Source of the DNA: Methanobacteriota archaeon
GTDB taxonomy: Archaea > Halobacteriota > Bog-38 > Methanoflorentales > Methanoflorentaceae
Assembly (NCBI GenBank): GCA_963720465.1
Contig: OY970393.1
Span: forward strand, 736,001-800,000
Direction of reading: 5' to 3'
Length of the DNA stretch: 64,000 nt
The notes beneath the pieces were generated by a model. That model saw only the letters and a program-made list of their open reading frames with translations, was not told the origin of the DNA and made no database searches. The translations under genes and the position numbers were made by a program. Position 1 is the first letter of the stretch. Each line of letters opens with the position of its first letter. Shown one piece after another: positions 65 through 54,665 of this stretch.

Positions 65-289
65 ATGGGCCTTTTGGAGACTTATCGCAGCAAAATCTCT
101 CTTCATCGCGCAAAAGCGGGTTATAGCTATCCTTTGATCCGACTGCCGCACATGTTCTCTCTGCTTGCGGGGTTACCCACAAGAATCTATCAGACAGTTT
201 ACGACGGAGCACTAGCCTTTCTCGTGCTTGTTTCACCTCAAGAAAAGACCTCAGAAAGTTTCAAATCCTCCGTCTTCACACGGCGTTAA
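65..289 (+). CDS. Small element-associated ORF (intN-like, possibly AbrB-like) ending in the tRNA-Val anticodon arm
   Basis: MGLLETYRSKISLHRAKAGYSYPLIRLPH...TRIYQTVYDGALAFLV; homologous to 11540-11700 and 54504-54665; last codons are ccgtcttcacacggcg (270-285). Confidence 0.65.
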   Translation: MGLLETYRSKISLHRAKAGYSYPLIRLPHMFSLLAGLPTRIYQTVYDGALAFLVLVSPQEKTSESFKSSVFTRR

Positions 290-1624: not shown

Positions 1625-2383
1625 AGGGCCTCATCCTCACGGAGATCTAGCTAACGGAAATTCAAGAGCGAACAAAGTCCCCTTTTTTATGTAAACCTAA
1701 ATTCCAGCGCGATAGCGCAACGGCGCCAAGTGCTAGCGCAACCCCCCACGCGGGCCACGCTACCGGAGCTTGCTGTTCAGCTCGGCTCAGCTCGGAGCGA
1801 CAGCATTGAGCATCGTTAATCGAATCACATATCGTGCACTTAGCATCCCCATTCGCTGCCCCTTCTTGGATACCGGCGCTCACTTCGCTCGGATCACTAT
1901 ATGGCGGCGTATTGCTTGATTGCTTGAACTATCTCGTCTCCGTCGCTGTCTTTGTTGCTGTCCGCAGAGTTATGTCTGGCTGTCTGTTATCTCGGCCGTT
2001 CTAATATCCACTGTAAGTCCACATAACTATCCGATGAGTACTATAGAGCTTACCGATAGGGGCGACGAATCCTGCCGGGCCCACTATCCTTTTTTGCAAA
2101 ACTAGACGTGCGTAATGTTGAACTTGAGTAAAGCCCTGTAGCTAAAGACATAGAAGAAATGCTTAGCGAGGACGAAGAATAGAGCTGGCGTTCTTGCTAG
2201 CCGATGAATTGGACCTGACTCTTGTCTTCAGATTGAGATTAAGAAACAAACCGGGCCTAGCGCATAGCACCTGCGACAAGATTGCAGAGAATCTCATGCG
2301 GGCTGCGGTTACGATATATTTGCAATCCAGCTCGCAGGGGGTATCCTCTACCCGTTTAGGGTTGTACTCACGCCCAAATGCTT

Positions 2384-2950
2384 CTACCAGATATCTTCCG
2401 CGGTCTCTTGTGTCGTCGACCCGTTCTCCCCCGCACCGTTCGCGCATGCATCAAATGCCGACATCCCCAGTATCGAGCGGTTCTGCCGTGTGCCGTGCGC
2501 GTACGCGCCAATTTCGTTGGCGATTGGCCCAAGCGCCTTTGCCTTTGAGACGATCTTATGCATCGTTTCGGTGAACTTGATTCCCTCTGATGCGGAAATC
2601 TGATCCCAATAGAGCCGTTCGGGATTGATGCCGATTGCTTGTAAGTAGGCTTTGAGATAGGTCGTGCGCATATCGCACGCGTAGTTCCCTTTCAGGTAAT
2701 GGCAGTCGCCGAAGTGACAGCCGAGCACCATGACCATATCGGCGCCGGAAAGGAACGCTTTGACGATGAACAGCGGGTTTATTCGTCCCGTGCACATCAC
2801 CCGAATAACGCGCGCATTCGGCGGGTCCTGCATGCGCGCGGTACCCGCCCCATCCGCGCCCGCGTAAGAGCACCAGTTGCAGCAGAAGGTCAAGATACTA
2901 GGTTCCCATTGCCGCTCGTCCATTTCCGTAGCGTCTTCAGCTTGGCTCAT
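2384..2950 (-). CDS. mvhD: MvhD/FlpD [2Fe-2S] hydrogenase delta subunit (C-terminal tail probably non-native)
   Basis: FCCNWCSYAGAD, MCTGR, GCHFGDCHY, W.SASEG motifs. Confidence 0.93.
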   Translation of the reverse strand: MSQAEDATEMDERQWEPSILTFCCNWCSYAGADGAGTARMQDPPNARVIRVMCTGRINPLFIVKAFLSGADMVMVLGCHFGDCHYLKGNYACDMRTTYLKAYLQAIGINPERLYWDQISASEGIKFTETMHKIVSKAKALGPIANEIGAYAHGTRQNRSILGMSAFDACANGAGENGSTTQETAEDIW

Positions 2951-4116
2951 GCTTTCACCTCGGCAATTTTGGACAGAGGTATCGCGTCAGCCGTCGACTG
3001 TCCCGGCACATATCCCAGCGTCCCTTGAACCGACGATTGTACCATATGGGTGATCGTGGCAAGCGGGATCTTCTTCGGACACACGTTCTCGCACTGGCCG
3101 CAGTTCACACACGACGGACTCACGTGCATCAATCGCGTAAGGTGGAACATCGGGTCAGGCGGCACTGTGTCTTTAGGCACCACGAACTCTTGCTTCGTAA
3201 AGCATTCAACACACGAGCATATCGGGCACACGTCGATACACTCCCGACAGCCATCACACTTATCAAATTGGGCGAACAGTCTCTCGAATTTGTGCTCGCC
3301 GTCAAATTGGGCAAATTGCGTCGCCATGGCTTTGCGTGCCATCTTCACCATGATGCCGTCCAGCTTCTCGCGTAGGGCTATACCTTGCGGTGGCGCGTCC
3401 TTCAGCGTGATCGCGCCCGCTGCAATCGCAGTATCGAGGAGCTTTTGCCCCTTTTCCGTGCGCACTTCGACAAACGTGACTTTTCCTGCGTCGTCACCGA
3501 TGACGCCCCAGTTGCCGCACGCCAGATCGGCCATGCGCGGTATGTTGTATTCGCATCGTTGGCAGTTCGTGCGTCGGCCGTAACCCTCGGCTTCCAAGTC
3601 ATCGATGGAGAGCTCTTTGTGTTGGCCGTCCTTGGTTATGATGATGAGCTTTCCCTTATCGATCTCCTCTTTTACCACGTCCTCGGGATCAATGTCGAAG
3701 AACTGTCGAATCATCTCACGGGCAGGCCCGGGTAACATCGTCCCGCCGCAGTTGACGCCGATCATATAGACGTTGTCGAGATCGATCTGATTACGTTTGC
3801 TCAACTCGATAATGGCACGCGCGTCACACGGCTTACACGTCACCGCAATGCGCAAATCACGCGCACCATTGAAATCATTCTTTATCAATTTCGCGCTCAG
3901 CGTTGGGGCGCAGTGCAACGAGCCGGCAGCATCCGTTATCTCCTCTTTGGTGGTCGCAAAATAAGGAGCACCGTCATAGATGCTTTCACCTCTTTTGATC
4001 ACCAGCGCTCCGTCCACTAACTTCTGCTCTACCGCGGCTATGAGCACAGCGGTAATCACGCCCCCGCATTCTCCCTGTTCTTGTACTAGCTTATCTGTGG
4101 CTCTTCCGTAATACAT
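2947..4116 (-). CDS. fdhB: F420-binding formate dehydrogenase beta subunit (FrhB/FdhB family)
   Basis: GECGG, GSLHCAP, KPCD, GVNCGGT, RRTNCQRC, two 4Fe-4S motifs; start MYYGR at 4116 after an AT-rich promoter. Confidence 0.9.
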   Translation of the reverse strand: MYYGRATDKLVQEQGECGGVITAVLIAAVEQKLVDGALVIKRGESIYDGAPYFATTKEEITDAAGSLHCAPTLSAKLIKNDFNGARDLRIAVTCKPCDARAIIELSKRNQIDLDNVYMIGVNCGGTMLPGPAREMIRQFFDIDPEDVVKEEIDKGKLIIITKDGQHKELSIDDLEAEGYGRRTNCQRCEYNIPRMADLACGNWGVIGDDAGKVTFVEVRTEKGQKLLDTAIAAGAITLKDAPPQGIALREKLDGIMVKMARKAMATQFAQFDGEHKFERLFAQFDKCDGCRECIDVCPICSCVECFTKQEFVVPKDTVPPDPMFHLTRLMHVSPSCVNCGQCENVCPKKIPLATITHMVQSSVQGTLGYVPGQSTADAIPLSKIAEVKA

Positions 4117-4236: not shown

Positions 4237-4648
4237 ATAGTGAGAAGAGCGTTGGTTCCGAAAAGCCAGTGCTGCAGGTCGAATCCTCCTAAGACAAAAT
4301 CCGAATGGAAAACTACGTACCTTTGCACCCACAGGTCGTTTCAGCTATTGAAGCTATGCTCGGCGACCGCAAGAACGAAGACCGCGCAGTTGGATATAAC
4401 AGCTTCCAAATGTGGATGAAGCGCCAAGAAATCCCTATGAGTCACTTTGAAGGCATTTTTTGCCAAGCGACTTGCGGAAATTCGCGGAGCAGCACGGCGA
4501 CACAATCGAATGGGAGCAGTCTAATCGAAAGTACGTGCTCACTCACGGCGTCGGAGGGGTAGATTGGAGCCATTACAAGCACCCTCTTCCCGAATCGGTG
4601 CATGATATTTATATGAAGTATTGGGGAGACGTGAGCTTGAAAACCTAA
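4237..4648 (+). pseudogene. Tyrosine recombinase, C-terminal remnant
   Basis: KPVLQVESS*DKIRMENYVPLHPQV...SDLRKFAEQHGD...THGVGGVDWSHYKHPLPE; homolog of 12430-12834; stop and frameshift. Confidence 0.85.
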
Positions 4649-4921
4649 CTGAACTGGCTTTTTTTTTGATTTTTTTTAGCTACAGTAAATGCTCTCGGCC
4701 AAACGCAGAAGTCCGGTGCAGTTTGTAAATTATCGTGCGTTTGACCACGGAAGGCATATTAGTCTATATTCTGTCCCTTATTTTACTTCGGTCAGTTGAA
4801 CGACTAGACCGCGACCTTCACGGTTAGGCTGAATGCCTCGCGGCGCGTGGAGCTGCCAGCGCAATAGCGCGACTCAAGCTCCAGCGGCGCATTAATAAAT
4901 CCTTTTTAACCAACGACCCGC

Positions 4922-8771: not shown

Positions 8772-9309
8772 TATCGTGGCTTTACTCTCTCCTGCCGGGG
8801 CTAAAACACATGGACCGCATGACATGTTTCATGTGTGATTTTTTCTAATGGCGATATTAGCGTCAAAATGGCCGCCGGGTTAGTCTCTGATATAGCGCGG
8901 GGGCTCTACAGCGTCAAGGTGCGCTCGCGGCCCTGCTAGAATCGACGTGACAAACCCAGTGAGGGTCTGGGCAAGCTGGTCTTTCAAGCGCAAATGTGCG
9001 CAAATACGATCCTTTTGAGTTTATCCAATGAGTCGCTATATTTCACCCATGCAACCAACCGCTCCTTGGTTTTACCACGCCTGCTTATACTCATAAAATT
9101 GTGAAACCTTAAAGCGCCATAATCTGACAACTACGCATATATCTTTGTAACAGCGCTTTGTTACAACGGCCTGTCTGCAGGGTCGCAATTGACGAAAGAA
9201 GGCAATATTGACGAGATTAAGCAACACAAGCTATAAGAGCGAGCAACTCATAGCTTTTGCTAGGAAGCACGGAACTTCGGTTGCTCGAACGCGTCAAGTG
9301 GCGATTCTG

Positions 9310-10361
9310 ATGTCCACATCCGACTTCGGGCCGGTCTATACCGACGCTACTCTTTTTGATACACTATGCCAAACGCTGGAATCAGATCTCGCGAAAGAAG
9401 CGTGCAAAACTCTTAAGAAAGCTGTCGCTGATCCAATTTGCGCTGCTGTTAAACAGAGCATCCGCGATTCATTGCGCACTGAAGACGCGCACGACGGCAC
9501 AACGCATTATAGCGCTGAAACAACCCCCGCTCGGTTCGGCACCACGTTCGAGAACACGATATCCCGTGCAGTGTGTGCGGCGCTCAAGCAGGCGATGGAC
9601 GACACCGCGTGCAGCACTCTTAAGAGCACAATTCACCACAGCTTCGAGCTCGCGCTCGGGAGAGAGCACATAGAAGACGTGCGTTTCGTCCCCTCGATGA
9701 CTCCCCAACTTATCGACTCTTTCTGCACATCTCTTGAACAGATCACGGGAAATGCCGTATGCGCTGCATTGAAGCAGGCAATGGACGACACTGTTTGCGC
9801 CGCTCTTAAAAAGGGCGTCCAAAGCTCGTTCGCGCAGCTAGCGGGCCACAATCGCCGAGAGGATGACATCGCCGAGATTCCGGAGCTGTGGCTCGACCGC
9901 GAATTTACGTGGCGAGCGGCGGCTGATGACGATGGCGCTACAGACGCATTTGGCAGGGTAGAGGACGCCGTCGTTAAAGTGGTCTGCAATCGACTAAAAG
10001 CAGCAGTGACGAGCACGCTCTGCAGACTTCTCCAACAAACGATCAAAGATACTGTCGAAAAGCACTCGACGGAATGCAAGGCAAAATGTCAACGAGACGT
10101 TGAGCAGCCTAGGGCCTACGAACGATCACGAATACCCATGCGTCGATTGCACTCGTTTTTACGGTTGGTTTGGTCGTCGTGTTGCTTGCTGCCATACTAG
10201 CTCCAGGCGCTCTTCCCCCCACTACCGTTAGTAGCTCTAGCAGCCCCAATCCTCCTAGTAATAATATTATCCTAAGAAACCCCAGTGCCCCCAGGCCTCC
10301 CAGTAATGCCACTGCTACTGCCACTCCTACTGCCACGCCTACTGCCTCGCCCGTGATATAA
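9310..10361 (+). CDS. Cys-periodic helical repeat protein; probable frameshift before a C-terminal TM and Pro/Thr tail
   Basis: Ten CxxL/V motifs; alternative frame from ~10140 gives ASIALVFTVGLVVVLLAAILAPG...PTATPTASPVI. Confidence 0.5.
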
Positions 10362-10616
10362 GCGGCTGTCGAGATGCCTGTTAAGCACGTGTTAGGCGCT
10401 AATTTCAGCAATGGCAGGTGCAATGTTCCTTTGGCTGCCGACCTTTCATCCTGTTGGGATAGAATCACAAGCAATCAAGTAGCTGAACAAGTAGCGCTTA
10501 AATTATAGGCTCCCCCTTCCCTGGTAACCAGTGCGAGATTGCTTCTAGCAAAAAAACCTAATAGCATCGGGCAAACTAAACGCTTTATCTTGTCGGATGC
10601 ATTCTTTTTAGTTGTT

Positions 10617-11343
10617 ATGACCATCGCGATAGGAATTAACTTCGGAACCTACGTTTTGCTAGCTGCAGATACTCGCGCTAGTGGCTACAATCTGCATCGC
10701 AACGAAGAACAATGAAGATGATCAAGAGGAGATTTGTTGTACAAATATAGGAATAGTTAGTGGGGTAGGGAGCATCGAACTTCTTGAGCCCGTGAATGCT
10801 AAATTCAACCAGATAGTCGAACTGAGCTCTTCCGATGTACTCGAGAGAATCGTGCGCAAGGAAAGACGTCGTTTCTCAATGCGTTACCCGCAAGTTCCCG
10901 ATGAATACGCCGAGCAAGTCAAAAACACGTGGTGGATTTTCAGTTGTCGACAGCTTAATTATGACAAGAGAGAGCTTACGCTCGAGCTGCGTGTTATAGA
11001 TCTTCTCTCGAAACTTCTGAGGGCGGATAAAAAGAATCATCCTTATTTGTTGCCCGCATTCGGGGCGACTAAACAAGATTTACTTGATATTACAGGTTCT
11101 CTTAAGGGATCGATAAAATCTTATGAGGACTTTGAAAGCTTACGAGATAGCATCGAGTATCACTGGAAAAAAATTCACCTTCTAATACAAGACATTCACC
11201 CCAAGTTTTCTAGTATCAGCTCCTGTAGCCAGGTAGGTTTCTGTACGATAGACGGCATTATAAACAAGTCTAGGATTGCGAAAAATATTGATGGGATTCC
11301 ATCCTTGACAAAGGAACTGATTGCAGCGCCACGTCAAGCTTGA
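10617..11343 (+). pseudogene. Ntn-hydrolase/proteasome-beta-like protein, frameshifted
   Basis: MTIAIGINFGTYVLLAADTR N-terminus, then a shift into ORF 10681-11343 (GIVSGVG). Confidence 0.55.
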
Positions 11344-11503
11344 CCAAAAATAAGAGAGTCAGAAGCTGCATTTTTTGTCAGTTAGCTGATCGCCTTCGCG
11401 ACGACGCACTTCAGCGGGAGGAGCATACCTCATAGAGGCAAGCGCTACGCCAAAAGCACGTTGGTATAGCACAAAAAGCCCTTGAAACGCAGCGGCAGAG
11501 AAT

Positions 11504-11516
11504 CATAACGGTTATG
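11504..11516. promoter_or_regulatory. Palindrome CATAAC-G-GTTATG upstream of the element ORF (candidate operator)
   Basis: Perfect 6-bp inverted repeat 23 bp before ATG 11540. Confidence 0.35.
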
Positions 11517-11539
11517 TTTGACGGCACCTCCAGAAACGC

Positions 11540-11750
11540 ATGCAACCGATCTGCACGCATAAGATAAGCATCCAAAGCTCAAAGCCATCGCATGCCTACC
11601 CCATTATCGGGCTCCCTCGTGAGTTCCGCGAACTGGCTGGTGCAACCGCAGAGATCTATCAAACAAGCTATGACATGGAATCGCTTTCTTAGTGAAGATC
11701 GTCGATCGTTCTAAAAGGAAGCCCATCAAGGGCTCCAATTCAGGAAAGGA
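11540..11750 (+). pseudogene. intN-like ORF, frameshifted copy
   Basis: MQPICTHKISIQSSKPSHAYPIIGLPREFRELAGATAEIYQTSYD / GIAFLVKIV aligns with ORF 65-289. Confidence 0.75.
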
Positions 11751-11795
11751 GCCTTCACACGGCGGAGGTCGCCGGTTCGAATCCGGCCGAGGCCA
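11751..11795 (+). mobile_element. att site: 3' half of tRNA-Val(CAC)
   Basis: gcc-TTCACAC-ggcgg anticodon arm, aggtc, T-arm gccgg-TTCGAAT-ccggc, cgaggcca; no 5' half upstream. Confidence 0.85.
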
Positions 11796-11856
11796 TCGTT
11801 CTTTTTGGGATTTAGAAGAAGCAGCAGTCTCCATCGAGTTTCAAGATTCTGGGTGC

Positions 11857-11889
11857 AAGTTGTCTACTTCGAGCGAAAAGTTGTCTACT
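11857..11889 (+). repeat. 12-bp direct repeat AAGTTGTCTACT x2 at a 21-bp period
   Basis: 11857-11868 and 11878-11889, between att and the recombinase. Confidence 0.8.
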
Positions 11890-11899
11890 CCGCCTGTAG

Positions 11900-12834
11900 A
11901 TGGTCACGCCATCATTAGCAACATTATTACTTGATTTTAAGATCGGCAAACTATGTAGCTACACAGAAGCACGTGCAATAGGTTTGGCTCGGAAATCTGT
12001 CGATTGGATCAATCGCGCTTCAAAGATCTTCTAGCGAGCTACACACAGAAAGATCACTAAGGTTTCAATGGATCGTCTTCGGTCTTATGTGTTAGAGAAA
12101 TACCAGAGCTCGTGGTCAAAGAGTAAGATTCTAACTTTCGCAAAAGCATTTTTGGCATATCTCACGAAGACGCGGCTTGATACCTCGTATCAAGCTTTCA
12201 GCATCTTCCTTGAGCTGCCCAAAGTGGTCAAAGAGCGAGAGAATGTGACAAGCAGGATTGTCACTAAAAAAGACGTAGAGCGGATTCTTGACCATATACA
12301 TCGCGCAGAGTGTCACGGAATTATTAGCACGTCGAGAGCGGAGCAGTACACGGCATTCACTGTTTTTGGCGCATTCACAGGCCAGCGAAGCATGGCAACG
12401 ATGATGAAGCTCCCGTTGGCCAATTGGGCGAGGCCTTACGGGCTCCGAAACCAGTGCTGCAAATAGAGCCGTCTCAAGACAAGATTCGCATGGAACACTA
12501 TGTTCCATTGCACCCACAGGTTATTGAAACTCTTCAACCACTGCTCGACGGGCGGCATGATGATGAGCTGATGTTCCGCCACGGTTCGTTCTGGATGTGG
12601 GCCAAACGGCAGCGAATCCTCATGTCGCAGTTCAAAGGCCATTTCGTGCTCGGCGATCTTCGCAAGTTTTGCGAGCAGCATGGCGACGCCATCGGCTAGG
12701 ATCAGTCGAACCGCGCATATATTATGACGCACGGGGTGAGCGGCATCGATTGGAAGCACTATAAGCATCCGCTTCCTGAGAACGTGTATGACGTGTATAT
12801 AAAGCATTGGCAAAATACCCAGCTAGGCAACTAA
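11900..12834 (+). pseudogene. Tyrosine recombinase/integrase, near full-length, inactivated
   Basis: FTGQR (R), QDKI (K), GDLRKF, THG, HYKH (Y); TAG at 12032 and 12697, 1-bp frameshift near 12412. Confidence 0.88.
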
Positions 12835-13186
12835 GTCTCGGCAATGTTCAGCAGCTAGCATAATACTTGTGCGTTGAACTCTGAGCACTTAATCGTTCTG
12901 ACTAGCCGCGCGCGGCTTAGCACAAATTATATGTTATGATCATAATCTCCTCGAAACGCTGCTGTATCAGTCACCACTTGAAGTGGTAAGATCTCAGCAT
13001 CAATTCAAGAATGTGAGTACCACATTAACACGACGGCAGTTTATCCAAGGCTCAATGATCAGGGCCTGCAGGACGTGCGGATGAGCCGGGCTAACGTCGT
13101 CCCTTAATTTTTTATATCGTTAATCCGAATGACAATTCATCAACCGGAAATGGAGAATTCAAGATACTTGATTGAGGGATGAGGAT

Positions 13187-13669
13187 ATGGCAGAAGGCAC
13201 TTCGAAGGCAGGCAGCACCAAGGTGTTGCTAAACACCAGCATGGGGGACATCACCCTGGAGCTTTTTAATGACATGCCCATTACCGCAGGCAACTTCCGA
13301 AAGCTGGTGGAGAAGGGATTCTACGACGGCACCATCTTCCACCGGATCATCGACGGTTTCATGATACAGGGCGGGGACTCCACGGGCACTGGCCGGGGTG
13401 GACCGGGGTACGCTATCAACGATGAGTTCTCTCATCACAACCGCAACGACCGGGGGACCATTGCCATGGCCAACGCCGGTCCGAACACGGGCGGCAGCCA
13501 GTTCTTTATCAACCTGGTAAACAACAACTACCTGGACCAAGCTCATCCGGTCTTCGGCAAGGTTATTGCGGGAATGGATGTGGCTGAGAAGATGGGCAAA
13601 GTGAAGACTGACGCTATGGACCGGCCGGCGAAAGAGGTGAAGATAATAGGTGCGAAGATCGCAGATTAA
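13187..13669 (+). CDS. Cyclophilin-type peptidyl-prolyl isomerase
   Basis: FHRIIDGFMIQGGD, AMANAGPNTGGSQFFIN, HPVFG. Confidence 0.95.
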   Translation: MAEGTSKAGSTKVLLNTSMGDITLELFNDMPITAGNFRKLVEKGFYDGTIFHRIIDGFMIQGGDSTGTGRGGPGYAINDEFSHHNRNDRGTIAMANAGPNTGGSQFFINLVNNNYLDQAHPVFGKVIAGMDVAEKMGKVKTDAMDRPAKEVKIIGAKIAD

Positions 13670-13874
13670 TTTTTTTAAGCTAGAAATAGGGCGTGTACTT
13701 TCTTGACTTGATATTTATCCGTTACTGCCGCTCGTCATAGGTTTGGGAGCAGCGATGGATTCCAGTCTTTGTGCATCGAAATCTTGGCGTAGGCAGCAAA
13801 GGAACTGCGATCGGCCCATAAGGCGTCGCAAGATATTATTACGAGAACGGTAACTCCCCTTCTGGAGGACGCAC

Positions 13875-14201
13875 ATGAGAAAGCTCAATGAGAAGGATGT
13901 GGAGATCTTAAGGAAGCTTGCCCCGGAGGCGAGCATACCCACCCATTATCGCTCCATCCTGCCACCGGTCTCCATGCATTTTGCAGCCGACGATGAGGAT
14001 TTACAGGACCGGCTAAAGAGGCTCTCAACAGAGGACCTCAAGTATCTGGCCGACCGCATCCTGGACGGCTCAGAGTGCTTGTTGTGCATCTCCCCAGAGG
14101 CTGCCGGGACGTTTCTAGACCTGCTGGAGGAGAGACTGCCCGGCGATACTGCGAAAAGCATAAGAGAGCAGTACAATTCGGCCACAGGATATGATGTCTA
14201 A
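13875..14201 (+). CDS. Hypothetical protein
   Basis: ORF with ggagg SD. Confidence 0.7.
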   Translation: MRKLNEKDVEILRKLAPEASIPTHYRSILPPVSMHFAADDEDLQDRLKRLSTEDLKYLADRILDGSECLLCISPEAAGTFLDLLEERLPGDTAKSIREQYNSATGYDV

Positions 14202-14266
14202 AGGATCTCTTTTCTCGGAAATCCTACGCGGCTCTGATACTGGGACCAAACCAGGATTTGAGAGCG

Positions 14267-14362
14267 ATGGATACGTCAAAGATGCTCAGCCTCCGTCTTT
14301 ATAATTCGGGTCTGGGTCATTCCCCGTTCGAAAATGCCATCGATGCAGTCTCCCACTTGGGT
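14267..14362 (+). pseudogene. N-terminal fragment resembling an AlkZ/YcaQ-like winged-helix protein
   Basis: LRLYNSGL...AIDAVSHLG, then abrupt loss of similarity. Confidence 0.45.
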
Positions 14363-14841
14363 CACGTTTTTCCCGACGGGCCCGCGCCGAGGCGCTCCGC
14401 GCTGCACAGCTTGCAGTCAAAGCGAAGTACCCTGATCCCTACTTCTGGGGGGTGTTCATCTGTCAGGGTGATCCCGCTCCACTCTCGTAAGAGGATGATC
14501 AAGCGACAAGCCTATTTTTCAGACCGAATGAAAACGATCCATATACAGGTAGATCACGTGCCCGGGTGCGAGACAAATTAGCCAACCGCGTTGGAAAGTT
14601 GATCTGACCATGTGCGTTGATCAAGATCCTTTATACGGCGTCTCGCAGAAGGAGCGAGTAAACTTAGTACTTGGCTGAAGAATGTATTGGCTAAAATACG
14701 TAGACGGATTCTGCTCACTTGGGTTAGACGTTGCATGTGCACCAACAAAGGAGAAAAACGCATCAGGTCATGTTCTCGAGCACAACTAGCAGCTGGACTA
14801 GTAAACAATTTGAATAAAAAAAGCGGGTTAAGGAGGTTAAT

Positions 14842-41842: not shown

Positions 41843-42889
41843 CTATTCGCTCTTACTCGCAAAGAGCTTAAGATACTCCTCGTAGCCCTGCTTCTCCAGA
41901 TCCTCTTTCGGGATAAACCGAAGCGCCGCCGAGTTCATGCAGTAACGTTGCCCAGTCGGCGGGGGCCCGTCGGGAAAAACGTGACCCAGGTGGGAATCTC
42001 CGTGCTTGCTTCTCACTTCAGTCCTCACCGCGAAGAGCTTCCGGTCCTTTCTCGTCGTAACGTTCTCCGGTTCCAGGGGTTTCGTAAAGCTTGGCCATCC
42101 CGTCCCGGAGTCGTACTTGTCGAGCGAGCTGAAGAGAGGCTCTCCGGATACGATGTCAACGTAAATACCTTCCCTCTTGTTGTCATGGTACTCATTTTGG
42201 AAGGGCGGCTCCGTGCCTTCGTGCTGCGTCACCTCGTATTGAAGCGGTGTAAGCATCTTTTTCAGGGTAGCGTCATCGGGCTTGCGATAGGCCTTCGTTC
42301 CCCCCGGATTGCCGCCGGGGTTGCTGCCCGCCTTCTTCTCCTTTCCCCAGGTCTCATCGAGGAACCGGTCGCGGCCGGAGCCCAACCGGTAGATCTTATA
42401 CCGTAAGGGGCTCTTCTTGTGGTAATCCTGGTGGTAGAACTCAGCCTCGTAGAACTTTGAGAATTTCACAATCGACGTGACTATAGGCTTCTTGAACGGA
42501 CCGGATTGTTTAAGATCAGCCTTCGATTTCTCCGCGATGCGCTTCTGTTCCTCGTCGTGGTAGAAAATCGCTGTTCTGTACTGAGGGCCTCGGTCCGCAA
42601 ACTGCCCGCCCGGATCCGTCGGATCTATATGACGCCAGAAGATATTCAAGACCTGCTCATAATTCACCTTTGAAGGATCGTAGTATACCTGTATGGCTTC
42701 GTGGTGCCCGGTCTTTCCCGTTGAGACTTCCGCGTAGGTGGGGTTTTCCTTCTGACCACCCGTATAGCCAGATATGACTTTTATAACGCCGGATACCTTT
42801 TCAAAATCGGCCGCTAAGCACCAGAAGCAGCCACCCGCGAGGGTTGCGACCTTCAAATTTGTCTGCTCTTCTTGCATAGGATTGTTCAC
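41843..42889 (-). CDS. msrAB: Fused methionine sulfoxide reductase MsrA/MsrB
   Basis: AGGCFWC, AE.YHQDY, GWPSF, HLGHVF.DGP, RYCMNS. Confidence 0.96.
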
Positions 42890-46201: not shown

Positions 46202-46495
46202 AAAATGGCGCTGAAATGCTGGGCTCATTGTTGACTTTTATTCAGTCGCTAATAATAACAAAAACGGGAAGCTAGCTGCAGCCGCAGCAGGAATGAAAGA
46301 AGACATTAAGGAGGGAAATAGTAAATGCCACATCCACTTTTGGCAGCACTGAGAATTACCGTAAGCATCGTCGTAGTCGTTGTACTGATCTGGGGGGCCT
46401 ACACGCTGACGCAGATACGCAAAACTCTTGAGCAGCTTCGGAAGCCGTAGCTGCCTTGCATGATTTTTTTGAGCGGTTCTACTGTCTCCCCGATT

Positions 46496-46616
46496 GAATT
46501 CCAAGTCTCTCCAATATCGCATATACACGTCATACACGTGCTGGGGGAGCGGATGCAGATTATTACTCCACTGAACTCCCGCAGCTGTGGTGAAACACAC
46601 GATCGATTCGACTTAT
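46496..46616 (-). pseudogene. Tyrosine recombinase, extreme C-terminal remnant
   Basis: GVQW...HPLPQHVYDVYMRYWRD; shares acgtgtatgacgtgtatat with 12782-12800. Confidence 0.85.
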
Positions 46617-54503: not shown

Positions 54504-54665
54504 GAGGTTCAGCGCGGGACGATAAGTGCCACGACGCGAAAGCAGGATACGACTATCCGACGATTCGGCTTCCCTTCACGTTATCAGGGATTATTGGGTT
54601 GCAGACGCGTATCTACCAGACGGTTCACGAACAGGGCACTTGCGTCCCTTGTGGTTGTCTCGCCG
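54504..54665 (+). pseudogene. intN-like ORF remnant
   Basis: HDAKAGYDYPTIRLPFTLSGIIGLQTRIYQTVHE / ALASLVVVSP aligns with ORF 65-289. Confidence 0.85.

What the first reader, a model, noticed from the sequence alone, without database searches (positions are those of the whole stretch)
11482..12834. Tripartite element (small ORF + tRNA-Val 3' half + tyrosine recombinase) in an unsplit attP-like arrangement
Seen: a ~70-codon ORF (KIS....K....YP.I.LP..F..LAG....IYQT.YD..AFLV) runs into the anticodon-to-acceptor half of tRNA-Val(CAC). It is followed by a 12-bp direct repeat and a recombinase with R, K, D-L-R, H and Y at the catalytic positions (Asp where HxxR normally has His). Established: SSV1/pTN3-type archaeal integrases carry a tRNA-derived attP inside the gene, so integration separates intN and intC. 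Inference: both halves are adjacent here with no host tRNA, which fits a hybrid junction between tandemly integrated elements, or a module that spreads without using its att. The N-terminal ORF pattern resembles an AbrB/SpoVT swapped hairpin and could be a separate directionality factor. I do not recognise this as a described family.
Basis: partly seen in the sequence, partly recalled or inferred. Interest (0 to 1): 0.8.

Follow-up and report, generated by a model that had tools for sequence, protein, structure and literature searches.

The report
Broken, unsplit self-splitting archaeal integrase gene
This is a decayed copy of an archaeal integrase gene that carries its own tRNA-derived attachment site inside its reading frame, left whole in the chromosome instead of split, and it belongs to a large family that the standard integrase models do not detect.

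Summary
The three parts are real and form one gene, not three units. The small ORF (11540-11703) is the N-terminal domain of a tyrosine integrase. The 46-nt tRNA-Val(CAC) 3' part (11751-11796) is the attachment site inside the reading frame. The recombinase (11918-12834) is the rest of the protein.

An intact 450-aa homolog, P0219, reads through all three parts. In relatives the gene is split across a 2.47-kb element flanked by perfect 53-bp tRNA-half repeats (L082). This is the SSV-type "suicidal" layout.

The window copy is a pseudogene. It has three frameshifts and two TGG>TAG stops.

The family is greatly expanded here: 32 N-terminal and 57 C-terminal loci in 2.3 Mb. Pfam PF00589 and PF16795 hit none of the 57 loci.

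Unsplit chromosomal copies are common: 19 of 65 assessable loci in other genomes. Only 1 of those 19 is in one open frame. This fits junctions of serial insertions at one att site, where only inactive copies persist.

The AbrB fold was not confirmed. The small ORF is not a separate directionality factor. The residue at the HxxR His position is Gly, not Asp.

The origin of this particular junction stays uncertain, because the element that should lie to its right is missing.

The parts
11451..11539 (+). Conserved upstream region of the integrase gene (probable promoter and 5' leader). Similarity to other copies of the family begins here.
   Evidence: 11451-11586 matches genome 346448-346584 at 82%; several matches in relatives start at query 2452, which is window 11451.
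11540..11703 (+). It is broken by a 1-nt deletion near 11676.
   Evidence: The HMM hit at genome 747540-747674 has E 5.5e-25. The same domain is the N-terminus of the intact 450-aa P0219.
11704..11750 (+). Linker between the N-domain and att, in the same frame as att.
   Evidence: frame starting at 11401; the linker is conserved in two paralogous copies.
11751..11796 (+). att: the 3' part of tRNA-Val(CAC), from anticodon stem to acceptor end, lying inside the reading frame (translated SHGGGRRFESGRGH).
   Evidence: 45 of 46 identical to tRNA-Val(CAC) at c191891-191964; no tRNA gene in the window; 17.9 bits, below threshold; homologs encode the same peptide.
11797..11899 (+). Variable leader of the C-part. 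It holds two 15-nt near-palindromic direct repeats (11857-11871 and 11878-11892) and a 2-nt deletion near 11895.
   Evidence: family D2; the repeats are identical in the G011 copy although the leader around them diverges; 17 of 77 copies carry such pairs, spaced 18 or 21 nt.
11918..12834 (+). Int(C): core-binding domain plus catalytic domain. It is a pseudogene: TAG at 12032-12034, a 1-nt deletion near 12415, and TAG at 12697-12699. Catalytic codons are Arg 12386-12388, Lys 12481-12483, GDLR 12652-12663, His 12730-12732 and Tyr 12760-12762. The natural stop is at 12832-12834.
   Evidence: HMM hit at genome 747918-748825 in 4 pieces; alignment to the intact G011 copy; motifs; phrog_1 'integrase', E 3.5e-6, for the intact paralog P0001; lambda Int, probability 0.96, from a low-confidence model.
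12838..12927 (-). Remnant of the 5' end (about 8 codons plus the upstream region) of a second-type Int(N) gene in reverse orientation. It abuts the 3' end of the integrase.
   Evidence: minus-strand matches to the regions just upstream of four other Int(N) genes (729.2, 2112.9, 69.0 and 359.1 kb). I read the reverse strand by eye; it begins MLAAEH, like the leaders aligned.

Best explanation
**What it is.** The locus is one gene. It is an unsplit, now dead copy of a tyrosine integrase whose attachment site lies inside its own reading frame (the 'suicidal', SSV-type architecture).

The domain order is:
- an N-terminal beta-rich domain of about 55 aa (the 'small ORF')
- a linker
- the 46-nt 3' part of tRNA-Val(CAC), translated as part of the protein
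- a variable leader carrying two near-palindromic 15-nt repeats
- a four-helix core-binding domain
- a catalytic domain with R, K, (G)xxR, H and Y

**How the family works (shown).** On a free element the gene is whole. Recombination between its internal att and the identical 3' part of a tRNA gene inserts the element. The C-part is then left beside the restored tRNA, and the N-part plus a tRNA-half copy is left at the far end.

**How this copy arose (inferred).** A whole copy inside a chromosome arises when a second element inserts into an att half that a first element left behind. The junction is then N-part(first)-att-C-part(second). A junction that encodes a working enzyme would promote excision and be lost, so the copies that persist are the broken ones.

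The window copy has five point lesions and is inert. The body of the right-hand element has since been lost. Only about 190 bp of element debris separates the gene from conserved host DNA (cyclophilin).

My odds: about 0.9 for the identity of the parts and about 0.55 for the serial-insertion origin.
For: **Identity of the parts**
- The integrase beside tRNA-Val(TAC) is open for 508 codons from inside the tRNA.
- Five of the 13 metagenome homologs that I fetched begin inside a tRNA-Val (MTSP..H...FES..AH).
- 15 of 32 N-domain loci in this genome are followed within 330 nt by tRNA-like sequence: 9 sense and 6 antisense.
- P0219 (= the L072 ORF) is one 450-aa ORF with the N-domain, an att remnant and the catalytic part.
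- L082 is a 2.47-kb element between perfect 53-bp Val(TAC)-half repeats. Its C-part (2231..3403) and N-part (4515..4802) read att in the same frame.
- A second split pair in this genome uses a non-tRNA att. A 26-nt repeat lies at 2104073 and 2113329, with 25 of 26 identical.

**Tyrosine recombinase**
- R, K, R, H and Y are invariant in 15 sequences.
- phrog_1 'integrase' matches at E 3.5e-6.
- Foldseek's best hits are lambda Int and Tn1549 Int at probability 0.96, and core-binding domains at TM 0.63-0.68.
- The nearest Atlas clusters that carry a Pfam family carry PF00589.

**Pseudogene**
- Five lesions were mapped against intact relatives.
- Both stops align with TGG in the G011 copy.

**Serial insertion**
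- L058 has the order N-att-[C ... N-att], with a 44-bp att repeat of 42 of 44 identical.
- The copy at 1533.7 kb lies at the far end of an element that starts at tRNA-Val(TAC) at 1560.2 kb.
- Three convergent N-domain pairs share one att.
- DNA left of the gene (window 9000-11450) has almost no match in five relatives, so it is accessory DNA.

**Survival of broken copies**
- 19 of 65 assessable loci in other genomes are unsplit, and only 1 of those 19 is in one stop-free frame.
- All 3 unsplit copies in this genome are broken.
Against: - No element body lies to the right of the C-part. Conserved DNA starts at 13023.
- No tRNA-Val(CAC)-plus-C-part junction lies upstream on the same strand. The real tRNA-Val(CAC) is 556 kb away, on the other strand and unoccupied.
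- The left 'element' holds ordinary-looking genes (HAD hydrolase, MvhD, an FrhB-like protein, a methyltransferase) rather than plasmid or virus genes.
- The frame offsets of the 19 unsplit copies (0/1/2 = 3/9/7) do not differ significantly from random (P = 0.079). 'Selection against in-frame copies' is therefore not shown statistically, and the 79 loci come from few, related assemblies.
- N-domain, att and leader are in one frame in the window copy. It could have been a working whole gene that arrived by another route.
- Short-read contigs of four runs (one study, possibly the source) do not bridge the att with 31 nt on both sides. The junction therefore rests on the assembly itself.
- The catalytic-domain model has low confidence (pLDDT 30-55).
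Confidence: 0.6

Rival explanations
1. The unsplit junction arose by rearrangement, not by a second insertion. Recombination (site-specific or homologous) between the att of an N-part end of one element and the att of a tRNA-plus-C-part end of another, lying in inverted orientation, would invert the DNA between them. It would leave N-att-C at one breakpoint and an empty tRNA-Val(CAC) at the other.
For: - The genome's only tRNA-Val(CAC) (c191891-191964) is on the opposite strand and has no integrase beside it.
- In all five relatives tested, similarity to the tRNA-Val(CAC) region stops at or within about 120 nt beyond the tRNA's 3' end.
- In G011 a C-part lies about 0.8 kb beyond that tRNA (positions; the record-named locus L054 shows tRNA-Val(cac) followed directly by the C-part).
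- Synteny next to the window locus is broken relative to relatives. The cyclophilin block 13023-14241 and the fumarase block from 14805 lie apart in G002 and G011.
- Inversions between integrated elements with such integrases are described in Thermococcus (review PMC8371274, section 31, read).
Against: - No second breakpoint was identified.
- The flanks of tRNA-Val(CAC) were not shown to match the flanks of the window locus.
- An inversion would still leave an element body to the right of the C-part, and none is there.
Confidence: 0.2
2. A mobile element carrying a whole, working copy of this gene entered the chromosome by another route (a different recombinase, a secondary site or homologous recombination). 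Its own att was never used, and the gene then decayed in place.
For: - N-domain, att and leader are in one frame in the window copy, and the five lesions are all small.
- An intact unsplit copy (the L072 ORF) sits in a 2.74-Mb record.
- The genome has 10 conventional PF00589 integrase matches that could move other elements.
- Several N-parts keep only the first ~16 nt of att and then diverge, which suggests recombination with non-tRNA sites.
Against: - No flanking repeats or other att were found around the locus.
- No conventional integrase lies nearby (coordinates).
- The surroundings are a patchwork of fragments of this same family.
Confidence: 0.1
3. The contiguity is an assembly artefact. 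The att sequence recurs many times in the genome, and two different junctions were joined through it.
For: - The att and its flanks are repeated.
- The summed depth of contigs over 11692-11873 is 5 to 20 times that of the flanks.
- No short-read contig bridges the att with 31 nt on both sides.
Against: - The repeat is only about 60 nt long and the genome is a single 2.31-Mb contig.
- The same unsplit order is seen at 19 loci in other assemblies and at 2-3 further places in this genome.
- Contigs 11560-11780 and 11762-13261 overlap consistently in four runs.
Confidence: 0.04
4. The small ORF is an independent gene (an AbrB-like directionality factor or regulator) that merely sits upstream of a conventional integrase with a neighbouring att.
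For: - After integration the N-part stands alone with its own start and upstream region, and many such ORFs are called as proteins (168 hits of at least 145 aa).
- The review reports that int(N) fragments of some SSV-type elements are transcribed (PMC8371274, section 30).
- The motif IRLP..F..LAG resembles the AbrB/MazE loop-helix by eye.
Against: - Single-ORF homologs exist.
- N-parts have no stop before att and read through it.
- The two halves of L082 are in one frame across att.
- AbrB tests failed.
Confidence: 0.04

Closest known systems
SSV1/SSV2, pTN3 and pT26-2 integrases (archaeal type I, 'suicidal' integrases)
   Same: - attP lies inside the integrase reading frame and is a copy of the 3' part of a tRNA gene.
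- Integration splits the gene into int(N) and int(C) at the two ends of the element.
- The att translation varies and is read in different frames in different lineages.
- Hybrid N/C combinations occur (Badel 2020, PMC7253208, passages; review PMC8371274, sections 9, 30 and 31).
   Different: - No detectable PF16795 domain and no PDB sequence match.
- The hosts are mesophilic methanogen lineages of peat and sediment (record titles), not hyperthermophiles.
- att is used in either orientation, a whole tRNA-Asp can be embedded in the gene, and non-tRNA att sites occur.
- Unsplit chromosomal copies are common. The 2020 paper says tandem insertions that reconstitute such a gene were never observed.
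Lambda Int and Tn1549/Tn916-type integrases
   Same: Three-part layout: a small N-terminal DNA-binding-like domain, a four-helix core-binding domain and a catalytic domain. These were the best fold matches. Paired repeats near att could act like arm-type sites; that is my inference.
   Different: - att lies inside the gene.
- The His of HxxR is Gly.
- The N-domain shows no significant fold match to arm-binding domains (3rmp only at E 5.4).
- The repeats lie within the coding leader.
AbrB/MazE/SpoVT swapped-hairpin domains (PF04014)
   Same: Similar size, a beta-beta-alpha-beta-beta order in the model, and an I-x-L/I-P-x-x-F/I-x-x-x-L-G motif at the loop-helix. hhalign aligns the two motifs in the expected register.
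   Different: - PF04014 finds seven other genes in this genome but none of the 32 N-domain loci.
- hhalign probability is 2.4%.
- Foldseek finds nothing below E = 1 (MazE 2mru TM 0.37/0.45).

Membership tests
Tyrosine recombinase superfamily | Catalytic R ... K ... H-x-x-R ... H/W ... Y in order, with typical spacing | tested here: met
   R156, K188, R248, H271 and Y281 (P0001 numbering) are invariant in 15 sequences. The spacings R248-H271 = 23 and H271-Y281 = 10 resemble those I recall for lambda Int (22 and 9). The first His of HxxR is Gly (GDLR). The window carries all the motifs.
Tyrosine recombinase superfamily | Match to curated sequence models (Pfam PF00589, NCBIfam) | tested here: not met
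   PF00589 gives E 0.013 and 15.7 bits against a cut-off of 27.1 for P0001, and E 0.12 for P0013. It hits none of the 57 C-part loci in a six-frame scan of the genome, while finding 10 other integrases. NCBIfam gives nothing. phrog_1 'integrase' does match at E 3.5e-6.
Tyrosine recombinase superfamily | Fold: core-binding helical domain plus catalytic domain | tested here: inconclusive
   The model of P0001 has pLDDT above 85 for residues 1-100 but 30-55 for the catalytic part. Foldseek gives lambda Int at E 8.8e-3 and probability 0.96, Tn1549 Int at probability 0.96-0.97, and core-binding domains at TM 0.63-0.68.
Type I ('suicidal', SSV-type) integrases | attP inside the int ORF; integration yields int(C) beside the target and int(N) at the far end, flanked by att direct repeats | tested here: met
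   L082 has perfect 53-bp repeats and both halves in one frame. This genome has the 2104.07/2113.33 kb pair with a 26-nt repeat. The C-part is open through tRNA-Val(TAC). P0219 is a whole ORF.
Type I ('suicidal', SSV-type) integrases | Phage_integr_3 domain (PF16795), which the review gives for the SSV, pTN3 and pT26-2 families | tested here: not met
   No PF16795 hit for P0001 at E up to 10 or for five homologs at E up to 1. The six-frame scan of the genome gives two weak hits (E 0.24 and 0.51), neither at a locus of this family. One Atlas neighbour cluster (rank 18, score 0.97) carries PF16795; this is a lead only.
AbrB/SpoVT/MazE swapped-hairpin domain | Match to PF04014, or profile or fold similarity to solved members | tested here: not met
   
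Recombination directionality factor as a separate gene | A small independent ORF with its own stop, not part of the integrase | tested here: not met
   N-parts read through att without a stop, and single-ORF homologs exist.

The most novel reading that the evidence does not exclude
This is an unrecognised lineage of self-splitting integrases in mesophilic methanogens. Its architecture may have arisen independently of the SSV/pTN3/pT26-2 group. It includes 2.5-3 kb elements made of little more than the integrase gene.

Its many unsplit but frame-broken chromosomal copies would be the natural tandem or hybrid junctions that Badel et al. (2020) predicted but reported as never observed. The N-terminal domain would be a dimeric DNA binder that recognises the paired near-palindromic repeats encoded in the gene's own leader.
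Probability: 0.4. Interest if true: 0.7.

Novelty: new variant of a known kind. Interest (0 to 1): 0.55.

Why it matters
Self-splitting integrases pose a known puzzle: an element that destroys its own integrase on entry should be trapped. The proposed way out is reconstitution of whole or hybrid genes from the halves of neighbouring elements. That idea rested on indirect evidence, and tandem junctions were reported as never seen.

This genus offers many such junctions, both clean split elements and broken whole copies. They occur in mesophilic methanogens that matter for peat methane. At least one cultured relative is a candidate host: Methanoculleus sediminis S3Fa (L079) has a C-part beside an antisense tRNA-Val.

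The standard integrase models miss the family. Surveys of mobile elements in these genomes are therefore likely to undercount it. The family's fragments also mark rearrangement hot spots.

The window copy itself is a dead relic with no present function.

Tried and rejected
- **Free forms on viral contigs.** A scan of viral contigs with P0001 found no relative.
- **Fused forms above 532 aa.** None found. The whole gene turned out to be about 430-530 aa.
- **AbrB fold.** Pfam scan of 16 N-domains gave nothing relevant. The PDB profile search gave only a chance match to Emg1. Foldseek on a pLDDT-74 model gave nothing below E = 1. hhalign against seven AbrB/MazE domains of this genome gave probability 2.4%.
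- **Catalytic-domain structure.** The model was too poor to compare with SSV1 Int.
- **Programmed frameshift at att.** Rejected: frame offsets in the 19 unsplit copies are mixed (3/9/7).
- **Terminal inverted repeats around the gene.** None found.
- **Large duplications in 700-760 kb.** Only the 270-bp N-part-plus-att repeat, at 89% identity.
- **Antisense reading of the C-terminus as an N-domain.** Rejected from the ORF list.
- **Inversion test with tRNA-Val(CAC) flanks.** Inconclusive.
- **RNA.** No RNA holder is listed.
- **Reads.** Contigs of four runs showed no joints, and none bridged the att.
- **Pyrrolysine reading of the two TAGs.** Not tested. Both align with TGG in the intact G011 copy, and the frameshifts break the gene anyway.
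Full report
**What is in the window**

The window is positions 736001-800000 of a single 2.31-Mb contig with 51.7% G+C. Genes nearby (MvhD, an FrhB-like protein) point to a methanogen-type archaeon. Homologs of the integrase carry source names such as 'Halobacteriota archaeon'.

Read in three frames, the finding consists of:
- a 46-nt stretch (11751-11796) that matches the genome's own tRNA-Val(CAC), at c191891-191964, in 45 of 46 positions from the anticodon stem to the acceptor end
- two 15-nt direct repeats at 11857-11871 and 11878-11892
- a recombinase-like reading frame that ends at 12834

ARAGORN finds no tRNA gene anywhere in the window. Rfam's tRNA model stays below threshold at 17.9 bits against 29. 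So the tRNA piece is a 3' part only.

**The three parts are one gene**

Three lines of evidence show this.

First, the intact paralog beside tRNA-Val(TAC) (genome 1558.7-1560.2 kb) is open for 508 codons from inside the tRNA. Five of the 13 metagenome homologs that I fetched (of 719 hits at E <= 0.001) begin at an ATG inside a tRNA-Val and encode a peptide such as SHGGGRRFESGRAH (P0062) from it.

Second, every copy of the small ORF that I inspected in this genome runs, without a stop of its own, into a tRNA piece or an att remnant. By HMM census there are 32 such N-domain loci. Of these, 15 are followed within 330 nt by tRNA-like sequence: 9 in sense and 6 in antisense orientation.

Third, whole genes exist. 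P0219, which is the ORF of locus L072 in a 2.74-Mb record, is one 450-aa protein with the N-domain, an att remnant, the helical domain and the catalytic domain. P0128 and P0175 read from the N-domain through att into the C-part.

The small ORF is therefore the integrase's N-terminal domain, not a separate directionality factor.

**The family splits itself on integration**

Locus L082 holds a 2.47-kb element between two perfect 53-bp copies of the tRNA-Val(TAC) 3' part. The C-part (2231..3403) lies directly after the left copy. The N-part (4515..4802) runs into the right copy. Both read att in the same frame, so excision would restore one ORF.

In this genome a C-part at 2104.07 kb and an N-part at 2113.33 kb are flanked by a 26-nt repeat that is not tRNA-derived, with 25 of 26 identical.

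This is the architecture described for the SSV1, pTN3 and pT26-2 integrases (PMC7253208, passages; PMC8371274, sections 9, 30 and 31).

**It is a tyrosine recombinase, but a very divergent one**

A 15-sequence alignment has invariant R (TGQR), K (QDK), R (GDLR), H (THG) and Y (HY). The residue at the canonical His position of HxxR is Gly.

Results against the standard libraries:
- Pfam PF00589 reaches only E 0.013, below its cut-off.
- PF16795, the domain the review gives for all known suicidal families, is not found.
- In six-frame scans of the genome, PF00589 finds 10 other integrases and PF16795 finds two weak hits. Neither touches any of the 57 loci of this family.
- NCBIfam and PDB sequences give nothing.

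Positive evidence:
- phrog_1 'integrase' matches at E 3.5e-6.
- Atlas neighbours that carry a Pfam family carry PF00589.
- A partly confident model (residues 1-100 with pLDDT above 85; catalytic part poor) has lambda Int and Tn1549 Int as best fold matches, and its first domain matches core-binding domains at TM 0.63-0.68.

**The window copy is dead**

I aligned it to the intact 366-codon C-part of relative G011 (88% mean column identity) and to two paralogous N-part copies. This maps five lesions:
- a 1-nt deletion near 11676
- a 2-nt deletion near 11895
- TGG>TAG at 12032-12034
- a 1-nt deletion near 12415
- TGG>TAG at 12697-12699

N-domain (after the first lesion), linker, att and leader share one frame. 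The gene may therefore once have been whole and in frame.

The two 15-nt repeats are identical in the G011 copy, although the leader around them has diverged. Among 77 5'-complete copies examined, 17 carry such a pair. The pairs are always spaced 18 or 21 nt, and the middle of the repeat differs between copies but matches within a copy. Each repeat is nearly palindromic. I infer a protein-binding site, perhaps for the N-domain. This is untested.

**The AbrB idea**

The N-domain model (16 sequences, pLDDT 74.5) has a strand, a loop, a short helix and a beta-hairpin. No test confirms a swapped-hairpin fold:
- Foldseek finds nothing below E = 1.
- PF04014 finds seven other genes but no N-domain locus.
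- hhalign against those seven gives probability 2.4%, although in the expected register.

**How common the unsplit state is**

In this genome the HMM census gives 57 C-part loci:
- 12 are 5'-complete
- 6 are partial
- 39 are short 3'-terminal remnants

Three of the 12 have an N-domain within 900 nt upstream on the same strand: the window copy, one at 721.5 kb and one at 1533.7 kb.

ARAGORN mis-calls the 721.5-kb junction as a 92-nt tRNA-Leu. There the N-part, att and the start of the C-part are in one frame, followed by one frameshift and a truncation. A fourth N-part, at 730.9 kb and 89% identical to the window's, is followed by a C-part leader remnant.

In other genomes, 65 of the 79 loci fetched were assessable:
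- 19 are unsplit (3 with a complete tRNA-Asp between the parts)
- 11 have a tRNA gene and no N-domain
- 35 have neither

Only 1 of the 19 is in one stop-free frame. The frame offsets are 0/1/2 = 3/9/7, which is not significantly different from chance (P = 0.079). These loci come from a limited number of related assemblies and are not independent.

**Origin of the window junction**

Serial insertion at one att is shown elsewhere:
- L058 has N-att followed by a complete 3.1-kb element (C ... N-att) with a 44-bp att repeat.
- The 1533.7-kb copy lies at the far end of an element that begins at tRNA-Val(TAC).
- Three pairs of convergent N-parts share one att.

Badel et al. (2020) predicted such junctions, argued that working ones would excise, and stated that tandem insertions were never observed. 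The present data fit that prediction, with broken copies as the survivors.

For the window copy itself the case is incomplete. DNA to its left is strain-specific but holds ordinary-looking genes. To its right, about 190 bp of debris is followed by conserved DNA from 13023. That debris includes a reversed 5' remnant of another N-part gene.

An inversion between distant att sites is a serious rival. The only tRNA-Val(CAC) is unoccupied and inverted relative to the window att, and in relatives similarity stops at or within about 120 nt beyond that tRNA's 3' end; a C-part lies about 0.8 kb beyond it in G011, from the positions.

Short-read contigs from four runs of one study cover the locus but do not bridge the att. 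They show no alternative joints.

**Verdict**

It is wrong on the role of the small ORF and on one catalytic residue, and it missed that the gene is broken.

The locus is an inert relic. Its interest lies in the family: an att-in-gene integrase lineage of mesophilic methanogens that the standard integrase models do not detect, with abundant unsplit junctions.

Noticed in passing
Genome 330-395 kb, 1538-1559 kb and 2292-2313 kb; in the window 4293-4642 (+) and 46493-46585 (-): 39 of the 57 C-part loci are short 3'-terminal remnants (25-75 codons). They end at the natural stop and are cut at variable 5' points. They lie in same-strand arrays spaced about 0.8-3 kb apart. In other genomes such remnants follow directly after full-length genes (for example L052, L054, L092, L107). 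I have no explanation. They could be debris of serial insertions or a second recombination target at the gene's 3' end.
   Followed up: partly
Genome 721463-722539 (locus L033, 916..1982): ARAGORN calls a 92-nt tRNA-Leu(CAA) at 721630-721721. This is in fact an N-part/att/C-part junction of the same family, with the anticodon arm of tRNA-Val read as a variable arm.
   Followed up: yes
Window 71-253 (+) and 54530-54634 (+): Two further N-domain copies lie in the window. The first keeps only the first ~16-20 nt of att (up to the anticodon loop) and then diverges at the same point as the copy at 729.3 kb. This suggests recombination with a non-tRNA site and places the crossover near the anticodon loop.
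   Followed up: partly
Loci L083, L093 and L096; genome 346538-347464: In one subfamily a complete tRNA-Asp gene lies between the N-part and the C-part. L096 is open from the N-domain through the whole tRNA into the C-part, with one stop. In this genome tRNA-Asp is flanked by a sense N-part on one side and an antisense N-part on the other.
   Followed up: partly
Locus L082, 2319-4784: A 2.47-kb element with perfect 53-bp att repeats carries the split integrase, one 200-aa zinc-ribbon/membrane-like ORF, and a short fragment resembling the C-terminus of a conventional tyrosine recombinase. This is about the smallest self-integrating unit imaginable.
   Followed up: partly
Window 13023-14241 and 14805 onward: Synteny with relatives is broken on both sides of the cyclophilin block. 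The closest relative (98.4% identical from 14805) has other DNA upstream of fumarase, and cyclophilin lies elsewhere in three relatives. In G002 a tRNA-Asp-derived att lies about 175 nt from cyclophilin.
   Followed up: partly
Window 14351-14390 and 41956-41995 (-): A 40-nt sequence recurs at 90-100% identity in this genome and in most relatives searched. Its nature is unknown.
   Followed up: no
Window 13022-13077: A 56-nt sequence at the edge of the conserved block has many copies at about 80% identity in relatives (up to seven in G007) and two weak copies in this genome. It includes a short palindrome (CAGGGCCTGCAGG).
   Followed up: no
Window 9208-10200 (+) and 10681-11343 (+): Two ORFs (330 and 220 aa) have no Pfam match and almost no DNA match in five relatives. 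The first has internal repeats (CAALKQAMDDT...).
   Followed up: no
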